IMG/VR virus record: IMGVR_UViG_3300021960_000017
Reading direction: 5' to 3' (one strand)
DNA: 64,000 bases
DNA from: a virus
Lineage: Duplodnaviria > Caudoviricetes
The notes under the pieces are model-generated. The model was not told the DNA's origin. It saw only the letters and a list, made by a program, of their open reading frames with translations, and made no database searches. Every line of letters starts with the position of its first letter. Within the stretch, counting starts at the first letter, position 1. Below are positions 26,577 through 47,087 of the stretch, piece after piece. The position numbers and the translations under genes were made by a program.

Positions 26577-27464
26577 ATGAAAAAGAATTTTTATCTATTA
26601 TATCCGCCAGGGTATATGGGAACTTATTTAAATTGGATTATTCAAGTAAGTGATAAACAAGGCAATGCTGTACTAAATCCAGTAACAGAAAATGCTAATG
26701 CCCATAATCATATAAAGCGACCAACACATCAAGTTATTCTTAAACATGGCATTTGGCGCTTATTAAATAAACCTCAAGAAAAGTTGGTTCATTGTGTTCA
26801 TACAACTAGTACAGCAGAAGACTATACTGCAAGGTCAGCTTGGGCAGCATACTTTATTTTGCTAAGTGACCCAGATCCTGTTATTATTAATATTCATGAT
26901 AATAATGATGATGATATTTATAAATTTGGTGCACTTAACACATATACTAAATGGAAACCTTTTCTGAAAACCAGAGAAGTATGGTTGCCTGAACTTTTTT
27001 CAAAAGCTCTTGCAGGTGACACGCCGCCCGAATTTTTAGCAGAGAATTGGAAAAAAATTTTCCAAAACAATAGTCCCTTAAATATGGAAGAGGTATATTT
27101 TAATTTGGATAAGCAACGTGCCTGGTTGGATATTCGTATACAAGAAAGTCCAGATGAGGTATTTGAGAACGAATATAACATCAGTAGAGATATCAAACCA
27201 AATACAATCTTTGACATAAACATGACTGACATAATGAAAGCAAATTTTATTGATAAGTTTGCTGAAATTTTGGCACTAACTGATAGCGCAGAATATGATT
27301 TTACTTATGCTAAAGAGTATCATCAAACTTATGTTAAAGCACAAAATAATTTTTTATTATTTGATGCAATTAAGAAATTTAGAGAAGATGGTGTTCGCGT
27401 CGATTGGTGGGACACTAATCCTTTAACAAAATCTTTTTTTATTTTAGAAACAATGAATGGTTGA
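26577..27464 (+). CDS. hypothetical protein, possible sulfotransferase-like fold
   Basis: N-terminal LYPPGYMGTYLNW loop; fold assignment is tentative. Confidence 0.5.
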   Translation: MKKNFYLLYPPGYMGTYLNWIIQVSDKQGNAVLNPVTENANAHNHIKRPTHQVILKHGIWRLLNKPQEKLVHCVHTTSTAEDYTARSAWAAYFILLSDPDPVIINIHDNNDDDIYKFGALNTYTKWKPFLKTREVWLPELFSKALAGDTPPEFLAENWKKIFQNNSPLNMEEVYFNLDKQRAWLDIRIQESPDEVFENEYNISRDIKPNTIFDINMTDIMKANFIDKFAEILALTDSAEYDFTYAKEYHQTYVKAQNNFLLFDAIKKFREDGVRVDWWDTNPLTKSFFILETMNG

Positions 27465-27488
27465 CATAAACTCAGACTCGTTTATAAT
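27461..27488 (+). promoter_or_regulatory. sigma70-like promoter for tRNA-Arg and downstream genes
   Basis: TTGACA-N16-TATAAT. Confidence 0.7.
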
Positions 27489-27506: not shown

Positions 27507-27582
27507 GATTCCGTAGCTCAGAGGATAGAGCATCCGCCTTCTAAGCGGATGGTCGCAGGTTCGAATCCTGCCGGGATCGCCA
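27507..27582 (+). tRNA. tRNA-Arg(TCT)
   Basis: GATTCCG/CGGGATC acceptor, TCCGC-CT TCT AA-GCGGA, GGTTCGAATCC, CCA. Confidence 0.97.
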
Positions 27583-27596
27583 TTTGGAGTAACTCG

Positions 27597-27974
27597 ATGA
27601 CGATGCATCTTGTAGGTCCTTATTTGACCACAACCAACTTCAGGCCTCGCAAGGCCAAGAACAAAAGCAAGGCACAACTTGCTACAGATGCAGCTCATGC
27701 AAAGTTTCTCAAGAAGATGGGTTATAAGGGGAATGGTGTCAGTGGTAGCACAGTAGTCTCCAAAACTAACAGCGAGGGTTCGATTCCTTCTTCCTCTGCC
27801 ATCCCTAGCATAGGTGATGGTGTCGGTTATAATCCAGGTATGTCTCGGCGTAAAGAAAATGTCTATAGTGGCGAGCGCAAACTGTTAGGCGTTGCCACTA
27901 TGCATAAATCCAATATGGTGCCAGTATTTTCCAGTGAAGATGCTGAAGCAATATCCAAGATGAGACGTGGATGA
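27597..27974 (+). CDS. basic hypothetical phage protein containing an in-frame tRNA-Trp
   Basis: TGGAG RBS; MHLVGPYL N-terminus and MHKSNMVPVFS..AEAISKMRR C-terminus. Confidence 0.75.
   Translation: MTMHLVGPYLTTTNFRPRKAKNKSKAQLATDAAHAKFLKKMGYKGNGVSGSTVVSKTNSEGSIPSSSAIPSIGDGVGYNPGMSRRKENVYSGERKLLGVATMHKSNMVPVFSSEDAEAISKMRRG
27727..27801 (+). tRNA. tRNA-Trp(CCA), nested inside CDS 27597-27974
   Basis: AGGGGAA/TTCCTCT acceptor, GTGT/GCAC D arm with GG, TAGT-CT CCA AA-ACTA, GAGGG-TTCGATT-CCTTC, G discriminator, CCA. Confidence 0.85.
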
Positions 27975-46297: not shown

Positions 46298-46722
46298 TGT
46301 CCAGCCTTAACAGACTACAGAAGTTTGTTCAGCGCAATGACATGTATGAGCGTAGGTTTGAGGCTAGCCAAGAACTAGCACTAGAAGCATATGACATGCT
46401 CAATCAGTATGTGTTTGATAACGGATTAGACCCCTGTCCTATTACGGTGCGACGCACAAGAGGGTATTGGGGTCTATGCGACGGCCGCATTGTGGACGAC
46501 GAATGCCGTGTAAAGGAAATTACCCTTACCAAACGGTATCCATTTAAAGCGATGTTCATTAACACTCTAGCACATGAAATGGTGCATCAGTTTCAGTGGG
46601 AAGTATTAAGCAACGAGCGCATGGAACAGGGCAAAGCACCTATTATGAGCCATGGCCCTAGTTTTTATTGCTGGAAACCTGCCCTAAAAGAATACAATAT
46701 TATATTGACTCGAGAGTACTAA
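46297..46722 (+). CDS. SprT-like metalloprotease
   Basis: TLAHEMVHQ and SHGPSF motifs. Confidence 0.8.
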   Translation: MSSLNRLQKFVQRNDMYERRFEASQELALEAYDMLNQYVFDNGLDPCPITVRRTRGYWGLCDGRIVDDECRVKEITLTKRYPFKAMFINTLAHEMVHQFQWEVLSNERMEQGKAPIMSHGPSFYCWKPALKEYNIILTREY

Positions 46723-46743
46723 TACTAGTATTATTAACAATAC

Positions 46744-46818
46744 GGCCCCATCGTCTAGCGGTTAGGACGCTGGCCTTTCACGCCGGAAACACGGGTTCGA
46801 TTCCCGTTGGGGTCACCA
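46744..46818 (+). tRNA. tRNA-Glu(TTC)
   Basis: GGCCCCA/TGGGGTC, CTGGC-CT TTC AC-GCCGG, GGTTCGATTCC, CCA. Confidence 0.96.
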
Positions 46819-46832
46819 ATTCAGGTATTGTT

Positions 46833-47087
46833 ATGAGCGAATTTAAACTTGGTATATTTAGACTATTAAAACGCATCATAGGTGGCAGCAGTGTCCTCCT
46901 TGCAGTTGTTTATACCATAGGACATATTTTTATTGCCATGCTCTGCAACAATTTAATTACTGGAGCAGAGTTTACACTAGCAGCACTAGATGCGATTATA
47001 GAGCCCTGCATTAACGGTGTATGGTTTTATGTTCTCCATAAATTATGGAGATCATTTTATAAAGATGCTACTGTATTCGAAAAATAA
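46833..47087 (+). CDS. DUF2061-like membrane protein
   Basis: AVVYTIGHIFIA, IIEPCINGVWFYVLHKLW. Confidence 0.7.
   Translation: MSEFKLGIFRLLKRIIGGSSVLLAVVYTIGHIFIAMLCNNLITGAEFTLAALDAIIEPCINGVWFYVLHKLWRSFYKDATVFEK

What the first reader, a model, noticed from the sequence alone, without database searches (positions are those of the whole stretch)
27597..27974. Apparently intact tRNA-Trp nested in frame within a protein-coding gene
Bases 27727-27801 fold into a complete 75-nt cloverleaf with a CCA anticodon, G discriminator, TTCGATT T-loop and encoded CCA end; there is one G-A mismatch at the top of the anticodon stem. The same bases are read as KGNGVSGSTVVSKTNSEGSIPSSSAI in the middle of a 125-aa ORF that has its own RBS and protein-like ends. 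The ORF is co-transcribed right after tRNA-Arg. RNase P/3' processing would destroy the mRNA, so protein and tRNA outputs would be mutually exclusive per transcript. This could be a processing-coupled regulatory switch or a dual-coding locus.
Basis: partly seen in the sequence, partly recalled or inferred. Interest (0 to 1): 0.8.

Follow-up and report, generated by a model that had tools for sequence, protein, structure and literature searches.

The report
tRNA slot inside a phage gene
An intact-looking tryptophan tRNA gene lies in frame inside the flexible-linker codons of a small conserved early gene of a marine T4-like phage, and related phages carry Pro, Met, Ala or Trp tRNAs (one or two) at the same spot with the reading frame always kept, so the same DNA very probably serves as both tRNA and protein code.

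Summary
ARAGORN and Rfam (49.6 bits, threshold 29) call tRNA-Trp(CCA) at 27727-27801. It lies in frame in the 125-codon ORF 27597-27974.

The ORF is a real gene (phrog_27048) with hundreds of relatives. They share conserved N and C modules joined by a variable linker that AlphaFold models poorly. Module dN/dS is about 0.15.

The arrangement recurs. About 27 related viral or metagenome contigs carry Trp, Pro, Met, Ala, Met+Pro, Ala+Pro or Trp plus a tRNA-like element in that linker.
- All 19 distinct nested tRNA sequences are read in a stop-free frame. For 13 it is their only open frame; the background is 0.29 per frame.
- 26 of 27 tRNA spans are not multiples of three, so the frame holds only if the tRNA is translated.
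- The nested tRNAs keep CCA ends and show compensatory stem changes: Pro 12/23 pairs, Trp 10/23.
- Each is the only tRNA of its anticodon on its contig.

So both tRNA and protein are under selection. A processing-coupled switch remains untested.

Precedent exists: selC nested in selB (Mukai 2021, bioinformatic). This scan also noted in-frame nested tRNAs on other DNA, including a note on what may be this gene family (e1-5337828). I rate it a new variant of a known kind.

The parts
27461..27488 (+). Sigma-70 consensus promoter (TTGACA, 16 nt, TATAAT; 12 of 12) driving tRNA-Arg and the ORF
   Evidence: 33% of family members have a promoter with at least 11/12 matches within 250 nt upstream, against 5% of control windows.
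27507..27582 (+). tRNA-Arg(tct), free-standing, 14 nt upstream of the ORF start
   Evidence: ARAGORN; Rfam 72.2 bits
27586..27589 (+). GGAG ribosome-binding site, 7 nt before the ATG
   Evidence: read from the sequence
27597..27974 (+). 125-codon gene of family phrog_27048 (P0001), including the stop codon
   Evidence: full-length PHROG match, E 1.1e-13; 578 relatives; dN/dS about 0.15
27597..27725 (+). Conserved N module (residues 1-43: MTMHLVGPY...TTT, a basic stretch, helix 25-40)
   Evidence: alignments; AlphaFold helix 25-40 with pLDDT about 90
27727..27801 (+). tRNA-Trp(CCA), 75 nt with encoded CCA, read in frame as residues K44 to I69
   Evidence: Four homologous nested copies show compensatory changes in 10 of 23 pairs. 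It is the only tRNA-Trp among the 9 tRNAs of the window.
27802..27860 (+). Remaining linker (residues 69-88), homologous to the distal linker of tRNA-less relatives (PSIGDGVG..) and holding the YNPxM motif shared by many tRNA-bearing genes
   Evidence: pLDDT 46-66
27861..27971 (+). Conserved C module (residues 89-125: VYSGERKLLGVATMHKSNMVPVF...MRRG; beta-hairpin plus helix)
   Evidence: invariant columns; codon-position diversity 0.20/0.10/0.54; AlphaFold E98-110 and H113-124

Best explanation
This is a dual-use locus. A small early phage protein is built from two conserved modules joined by a linker that AlphaFold models with low confidence. That linker serves as an in-frame slot for functional tRNA genes. 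In the window, a strong sigma-70-type promoter transcribes tRNA-Arg, then the gene. Ribosomes starting at 27597 translate straight through the 75-nt tRNA-Trp sequence, which supplies 25-26 linker residues, and so make the full two-module protein. Transcripts, or decay intermediates, that fold into the cloverleaf before or instead of being translated are cut by RNase P and 3'-end nucleases, releasing tRNA-Trp with its encoded CCA. Shown here: the tRNA cloverleaf is under selection; both protein modules are under selection; frame and openness are maintained through tRNAs of different length and identity; the tRNA bodies are exchanged between otherwise near-identical genes. Inferred: both products are actually made, a given transcript yields one or the other, and the slot is favoured because it combines strong early transcription with a sequence-tolerant linker.
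For: tRNA side:
- ARAGORN and Rfam call the window copy. Nested tRNAs in relatives score 50-68 bits.
- All nested tRNAs encode CCA.
- Compensatory double changes occur in 12/23 pairs of nested tRNA-Pro, 10/23 of nested tRNA-Trp and 3/21 of tRNA-Met.
- The nested tRNA is the only one of its anticodon in the window and in 5 contigs checked.

Protein side:
- Full-length PHROG match and 578, 541 and 592 relatives in three scans.
- Third-position diversity is 0.54, against 0.10-0.20 at positions 1 and 2. Median dN/dS is 0.15 overall and 0.12 among tRNA-bearing genes.

Frame:
- All 19 distinct nested tRNAs are read in a stop-free frame. For 13 it is their only open frame. The background probability is 0.287 per frame, and 16 of 50 free tRNAs have no open frame at all.
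- 26 of 27 tRNA spans are not multiples of three, so the C module is in frame only if the tRNA is translated.
- L045 (Ala) and L092 (Pro) differ by indels of +5, +1 and -9, a net -3.
- The window and L039 Trp copies differ by a 1-nt D-loop indel that is offset at the 5' junction.
- In a sample anchored on the C module alone, 15 of 17 tRNA-bearing loci have a continuous ORF and none is frameshifted.

Context:
- The tRNA-coded residues fall in a low-pLDDT linker.
- There is a 12/12 promoter in the window, and strong promoters are enriched upstream across the family.
- Weak hint: short contigs in three metatranscriptome libraries run from coding sequence through the whole tRNA into coding sequence.
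Against: - There is no direct evidence for a mature or charged tRNA, or for the protein. All support is comparative.
- The window's copy is the least canonical of the set: it has the lowest Rfam score (49.6 bits), a G27-A43 non-pair, an AU-rich anticodon stem, and a pyrimidine where A14 is expected (reading). Single-sequence folding shows only the acceptor and T arms, and an energy no better than shuffles.
- The RNA-library contigs could be DNA carry-over.
- L109 and L148 keep the tRNA-Met and the C module but have lost the N module, so the full-length protein is dispensable in at least one lineage.
- The protein's function is unknown, so why this gene is the slot remains unexplained.
Confidence: 0.72

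Rival explanations
1. Dedicated regulatory switch, a stronger version of the best explanation. tRNA folding and processing is used to set the level of the protein, or ribosome traffic through the tRNA gates tRNA maturation, so the two outputs are deliberately anti-correlated, as Mukai proposed for selC in selB.
For: The geometry permits it. The arrangement is old and maintained.
Against: The slot accepts Trp, Pro, Met, Ala and tandem pairs interchangeably. Most family members have no tRNA at all. Trp-bearing genes have no Trp codon in the N module, which reads F or Y where relatives have W, so there is no codon-specific feedback. The in-frame Met after the tRNA is only weakly enriched: 9/23 against 27/147, and this is confounded by ancestry.
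Confidence: 0.15
2. Pseudo-tRNA. In the window the Trp sequence is a decaying or exapted tRNA that now serves only as linker codons, and no functional tRNA is made.
For: It has the lowest Rfam score of the nested set (49.6 bits), a G27-A43 non-pair, an unusual residue at position 14, and an unremarkable folding energy.
Against: Four diverged Trp copies keep the cloverleaf through 10 compensatory pair changes, and all keep the CCA anticodon, discriminator G and CCA end. Variants in other samples differ at loop positions 44-45, not in stems. It is the only tRNA-Trp among the window's 9 tRNAs. The score is still 20 bits above the family cut-off.
Confidence: 0.08
3. The ORF is not translated as one protein in tRNA-bearing phages. 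The tRNA is the only product, and the modules are relics or are expressed separately.
For: L109 and L148 have lost the N module but keep the tRNA-Met and an intact C module. An in-frame Met follows the tRNA in some genes.
Against: dN/dS is 0.12 for both modules among tRNA-bearing genes. The frame and absence of stops are kept in every full-length case, across non-multiple-of-three spans and compensating indels. This would not be maintained if the modules were untranslated or translated separately.
Confidence: 0.04
4. Assembly chimera or chance ORF.
For: None beyond the window being a metagenome-type sequence.
Against: An independent DNA run bridges both junctions. The sequence is found in runs of 13 studies. 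The same arrangement is present in about 27 other contigs.
Confidence: 0.01

Closest known systems
selC (tRNA-Sec) nested inside the selB ORF of Alphaproteobacteria (Mukai 2021, Int J Mol Sci, PMC8124441; bioinformatic prediction)
   Same: An entire same-strand tRNA gene lies inside a protein ORF in a prokaryotic-type system. The proposed consequence is that tRNA processing and full-length translation are alternatives.
   Different: There, one specific tRNA sits in a C-terminal extension of its own functional partner, in cellular genomes. Here the tRNA sits between two conserved modules of a phage protein of unknown function, is of several unrelated identities (Trp, Pro, Met, Ala), can be doubled, and is exchanged like a cassette.
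[quoted passage not shown]
   Same: A tRNA in direct orientation within a coding region.
   Different: That case is a product of extreme genome compaction with a reduced 60-nt tRNA. Here full-size canonical tRNAs with encoded CCA lie in a phage that also has ordinary intergenic tRNAs.
Intergenic tRNA genes and clusters of T4-like and other large phages
   Same: Phage-borne tRNAs that complement the host pool, co-transcribed with neighbouring small early or middle genes. The window itself has 8 such free tRNAs.
   Different: Those lie between ORFs; here the tRNA is itself translated as part of an ORF.
tmRNA
   Same: One RNA with both a tRNA-like and a coding function.
   Different: tmRNA is a single mature molecule using both parts in trans-translation. 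Here one DNA stretch gives two different products. No sequence relationship was found.
Earlier notes of this scan on other DNA (e1-5337828: a small gene of marine giant phages with tRNA-Trp; e1-3294340: primase-helicase linker; e1-931926: phage lysin; e1-5254598: actinobacterial nuclease)
   Same: In-frame tRNA in linker codons with both frame and cloverleaf maintained. e1-5337828 may describe this same gene family; I did not test that directly.
   Different: These are AI notes, not publications. This report adds the multi-identity and tandem slot, the span-modulo-three argument, the C-module-anchored unbiased sample and the promoter context.

Membership tests
tRNA (Rfam RF00005), tryptophan acceptor type | Cloverleaf scoring above the family's gathering score | tested here: met
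   49.6 bits against 29, full model 1-71; ARAGORN call
tRNA (Rfam RF00005), tryptophan acceptor type | CCA anticodon in a 7-nt loop, and discriminator G73 (a bacterial TrpRS identity element; established knowledge) | tested here: met
   Read from the alignments; kept in all four nested Trp copies
tRNA (Rfam RF00005), tryptophan acceptor type | Stems maintained by compensatory substitution among homologs | tested here: met
   10 of 23 pairs with double changes among 4 copies
tRNA (Rfam RF00005), tryptophan acceptor type | Canonical tertiary nucleotides (U8-A14) and a fully paired anticodon stem | tested here: inconclusive
   U8 is present, but position 14 is C in the window and U in relatives. 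There is a G27-A43 non-pair in the window only.
tRNA (Rfam RF00005), tryptophan acceptor type | Processed, modified and aminoacylated in vivo | not testable with these tools
   No RNA run holds more than a small share of the sequence, and the data are contigs only
phrog_27048 (uncharacterised phage protein) | Full-length match to the family profile | tested here: met
   E 1.1e-13, residues 2-124 on profile positions 2-127 of 127
phrog_27048 (uncharacterised phage protein) | Conserved N module and C module (..ATMHKSNMVPV..MRR) under purifying selection | tested here: met
   17 invariant columns; dN/dS 0.15, and 0.12 in tRNA-bearing genes
Nested tRNA-in-ORF arrangement (selC/selB type, PMC8124441) | Whole tRNA gene on the same strand inside an ORF that stays open through it | tested here: met
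Nested tRNA-in-ORF arrangement (selC/selB type, PMC8124441) | Functional link between the tRNA and the host protein (SelB binds tRNA-Sec) | tested here: not met
   The tRNA identity is interchangeable (Trp, Pro, Met, Ala), and no function could be assigned to the protein
Nested tRNA-in-ORF arrangement (selC/selB type, PMC8124441) | Alternative expression of tRNA and full-length protein | not testable with these tools
   It is hypothetical in the paper as well

The most novel reading that the evidence does not exclude
The linker of this early gene is a dedicated, exchangeable tRNA expression platform. Translation through the tRNA sequence keeps it unfolded, so the rate at which mature tRNA is released is set by ribosome traffic on the message. 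This would give the phage a built-in feedback between translational capacity and tRNA supply early in infection. New tRNAs would be swapped in by recombination between co-infecting phages, using the conserved modules as homology arms.
Probability: 0.15. Interest if true: 0.85.

Novelty: new variant of a known kind. Interest (0 to 1): 0.72.

Why it matters
It shows that a full-size, selected tRNA gene and a selected protein-coding frame can occupy the same nucleotides, repeatedly and with interchangeable tRNAs. That goes against the working rule of genome annotation that tRNAs and CDSs do not overlap. Pipelines mask tRNAs or drop overlapping ORFs, so such loci are systematically missed or mis-annotated. 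It offers a compact natural system for asking how RNase P and 3'-end processing compete with ribosomes on one transcript. It suggests that poorly structured linkers of highly transcribed early genes are landing pads through which phages gain and swap tRNAs. It also extends a single bioinformatic precedent (selC in selB) to viruses and to a multi-tRNA slot.

Tried and rejected
1. Excision and re-ligation of the tRNA as an 'intron'. Rejected: 26 of 27 tRNA spans are not multiples of three, so removal would break the frame.
2. Linkers of tRNA-less relatives as decayed tRNAs. Rejected: no tRNA-like hit at E <= 1 inside 14 such genes. The HPDQ motif that resembles the translated 3' end of tRNA-Pro also occurs upstream of the tRNA in L039, so I take it as a coincidence.
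3. Codon-specific attenuation. Trp-bearing genes have no Trp codon upstream of the tRNA.
4. Internal restart Met after the tRNA. Only weakly enriched (9/23 against 27/147) and confounded by ancestry.
5. Function of the protein. No Pfam hit, nothing from the ESM Atlas, the PDB profile search or Foldseek against PDB; BFVD returned only uncharacterised family members.
6. Single-sequence folding. Only the acceptor and T arms are predicted, with z -0.6 and 0.0, which is uninformative.
7. Expression. No RNA holder was listed for the 1.6-kb stretch. RNA runs hold at most 0.10 of the words. Laid contigs cannot show RNA ends.
8. Cultured model. Only three distant cultured-phage lineages have the gene (five GenBank records: ACP17, PhiW-14, BUCT-ZZ01), all without a tRNA in it.
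9. Literature. Five full-text searches found no description of this arrangement in phages. Two apparent hits were unrelated uses of 'embedded within'.
10. The window's tRNA-Glu in a 141-codon open frame is not nested: a downstream gene starts at its own ATG after the tRNA.
11. No whole genome is held for the window.

Full report
**Observation.**
ARAGORN finds nine tRNAs in the window, among them tRNA-Trp(cca) at exactly 27727-27801 on the + strand. Rfam's tRNA model scores it 49.6 bits (E 1.8e-9, gathering score 29) over the whole model, with one non-pair at the top of the anticodon stem. ORF 27597-27974 is open for 125 codons and reads the tRNA in frame as residues K44 to I69. GGAG lies 7 nt before the ATG. 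tRNA-Arg ends 14 nt upstream. A 12/12 sigma-70 consensus promoter (27461-27488) precedes tRNA-Arg, and no + strand terminator follows before 29200.

**The ORF is a real gene.**
- It matches phrog_27048 over its full length (E 1.1e-13).
- It has distant homologs in Acidovorax phage ACP17, Delftia phage PhiW-14 and, unannotated, Synechococcus phage BUCT-ZZ01. None of these has a tRNA inside.
- Scans of IMG/VR and JGI metagenomes found 578, 541 and 592 relatives.
- The family has a conserved N module (MxMHLVGPYMTTT, a basic stretch, a helix), a variable linker of roughly 35-45 residues, and a strongly conserved C module (VYSGERxLLGIATMHKSNMVPVF...MRR).
- AlphaFold models the helix (25-40) and a C-terminal hairpin plus helix (98-124) with confidence, and residues about 45-85 with pLDDT around 50.
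- Codon-position diversity in the C module is 0.20/0.10/0.54. Median dN/dS on the two modules is 0.15, and 0.12 among tRNA-bearing genes alone.
- No function could be assigned.

**The arrangement recurs, with different tRNAs.**
ARAGORN on the fetched loci finds tRNAs inside the homologous gene, always on the sense strand and in the linker, in the following samples.

| Sample | Loci with a nested tRNA |
|---|---|
| Best full-length matches | 12 of 80 |
| Loci selected on the C module alone | 17 of 80 |
| Metagenome loci | 9 of 80 |

- The arrangements seen are Pro(tgg), Met(cat), Met+Pro, Ala(tgc), Ala+Pro, Trp(cca), and Trp plus a 92-nt tRNA-like element.
- Rfam scores the nested tRNAs at 50-68 bits.
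- About 27 contigs besides the window carry such an arrangement. Some may be the same assembly held in two collections.
- Fourteen tRNA-less relatives show no tRNA-like signal in the gene at E <= 1, so ordinary linkers are not decayed tRNAs.

**The reading frame is maintained through the tRNAs.**
- All 80 ORFs of the first sample are open end to end.
- Across all samples there are 19 distinct nested tRNA sequences. Every one is read in a stop-free frame, and for 13 that is their only stop-free frame.
- Among 50 distinct free-standing tRNAs from the same loci, a given frame is stop-free with probability 0.287, and 16 have no open frame at all.
- The tRNA spans are 74, 76, 77, 155, 157 or 188 nt; only the window's 75 is a multiple of three. 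So the C module is in frame only if the tRNA nucleotides are translated. This also excludes an excise-and-religate model.
- Flanking indels compensate. L045 (Ala) and L092 (Pro) are about 90% identical in both modules with mostly third-position differences. They have homologous DNA right up to the tRNA on both sides, and differ by indels of +5, +1 and -9, a net -3.
- The window and L039 Trp copies differ by one nucleotide in the D-loop. Their 5' junctions are shifted by one, so both read the T arm as EGSIPSSSA.
- In the sample chosen without regard to the N module, 15 of 17 tRNA-bearing loci have a continuous ORF. The other two (L109, L148) have the N module replaced by an unrelated upstream gene. 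None is frameshifted.
- Taking five tRNA types as independent, chance openness alone gives about 0.002, and with the phase requirement about 1e-5.

**The tRNAs evolve as tRNAs.**
- All nested copies encode CCA.
- Compensatory double substitutions keep 12 of 23 pairs in five nested tRNA-Pro variants, 10 of 23 in four nested tRNA-Trp copies, and 3 of 21 in tRNA-Met.
- In the window and in five contigs examined as a whole (31-244 kb), the nested tRNA is the only tRNA with its anticodon.
- Variants of the window locus in other samples differ at variable-loop positions 44-45.
- The window's copy is the least canonical of the set: lowest score, the G27-A43 non-pair, a pyrimidine at position 14, and an unremarkable folding energy. 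A pseudo-tRNA reading for this copy therefore keeps a small probability.

**History and context.**
- A tree of the two modules places tRNA-bearing genes in at least three to five places. Close sisters carry different tRNAs: Ala and Pro at 99/99 support, and the window's Trp next to a Pro gene. With few columns and evident mosaicism the tree is rough.
- Together, it shows that tRNA bodies are exchanged within an otherwise conserved gene.
- Many tRNA-bearing genes share the motif FY(N/D)xxMAK after the tRNA, which suggests a common origin of the slot.
- The gene tends to sit just behind a strong sigma-70-type promoter: at least 11/12 matches in 33% of upstream regions against 5% of control windows, with a median 32 nt from the -10 box to the ATG.
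- It often sits near tRNA arrays or a phage tmRNA.
- A virion protein of the window is about 40% identical to those of T4-like cyanophages.
- The sequence occurs in estuarine and marine metagenomes of 13 studies.

**Expression.**
No run gives usable RNA ends. Contigs of an independent DNA run bridge both junctions. In three metatranscriptome libraries from three studies, short contigs of 94-96% variants run from coding sequence through the whole tRNA into coding sequence. That is compatible with an unprocessed message, but DNA carry-over cannot be excluded.

**Mechanism.**
The best-supported account is a dual-use locus. Ribosomes translate through the tRNA sequence to make a two-module protein whose linker tolerates any sequence. 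Transcripts that fold first are processed to a tRNA. That both are under selection is shown. That both are made, and that one transcript gives one or the other, is inferred. It is not favoured, because the tRNA identity is interchangeable, most relatives have no tRNA, and there is no codon-specific logic.

**Comparison and novelty.**
A whole tRNA inside a bacterial ORF has been predicted once: selC in selB (PMC8124441), which calls itself the first such report in bacteria and cites a tRNA-Lys inside cox1 in an isopod mitochondrion. Five full-text searches found no phage case. This scan has noted in-frame nested tRNAs on other DNA, including one note that may concern this same gene family (e1-5337828) and a primase-helicase linker (e1-3294340). 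Those are unchecked AI notes. The present case differs from the published kind in three ways: it is viral, the tRNA lies between two conserved modules, and the slot is exchangeable and sometimes tandem. I rate it a new variant of a known kind.

Noticed in passing
L025:287-647, L027:287-647, L031:3409-3772: Phage-encoded tmRNA genes (ARAGORN; tag peptides ANDNF...) lie next to tRNA-less copies of this gene, in L031 only about 25 nt downstream of it. The gene seems to live in the small-RNA gene neighbourhood of these phages.
   Followed up: no
L164:283-374: A second in-frame element after the nested tRNA-Trp. It is a 92-nt tRNA-like sequence with a TAT anticodon, a 3-bp D stem, a 6-bp anticodon stem, a long extra arm and a CCA end. 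Rfam gives only a sub-threshold tRNA-Sec-like score (31.5 bits against 47). All three of its frames are stop-free.
   Followed up: partly
L109:1384-1638 and L148:1384-1638: The N module is replaced by the 3' end of an unrelated gene up to about 15 nt before the tRNA-Met, while the tRNA-Met and an intact C module are kept. This is a natural N-module deletion.
   Followed up: partly
window 27729 and 27796 (tRNA positions 3 and 70); also L039: The nested tRNA-Trp of the window and of L039 has a G3-U70 wobble pair, the classical alanine identity element. L164 and L185 have C3-G70 instead. Possible Ala mischarging was not examined.
   Followed up: no
window 46668-47087: tRNA-Glu (46744-46818) lies in a 139-codon open frame, but the upstream part overlaps the end of a SprT-like gene in another frame, and a small membrane-protein gene starts at its own ATG about 15 nt after the tRNA. 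This is not a nested case.
   Followed up: yes
L019:4920-4997: ARAGORN calls a tRNA with a TCA anticodon (labelled tRNA-SeC) inside an 11-tRNA array about 1 kb downstream of a tRNA-less copy of the gene. It may be a UGA-reading or suppressor tRNA in a phage.
   Followed up: no
L003:2698-3105 (Synechococcus phage BUCT-ZZ01, ON615601.1): A clear homolog of the gene, with the C module ...GNLHKSNAVPVFSDTEAQEISAMRR, is not annotated in the GenBank record.
   Followed up: partly
window 27461-27488 and upstream regions of family members: There is a perfect sigma-70 consensus promoter in the window. One third of family members have a promoter with at least 11/12 matches within 250 nt upstream, so this is probably an early gene read by host RNA polymerase.
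   Followed up: partly
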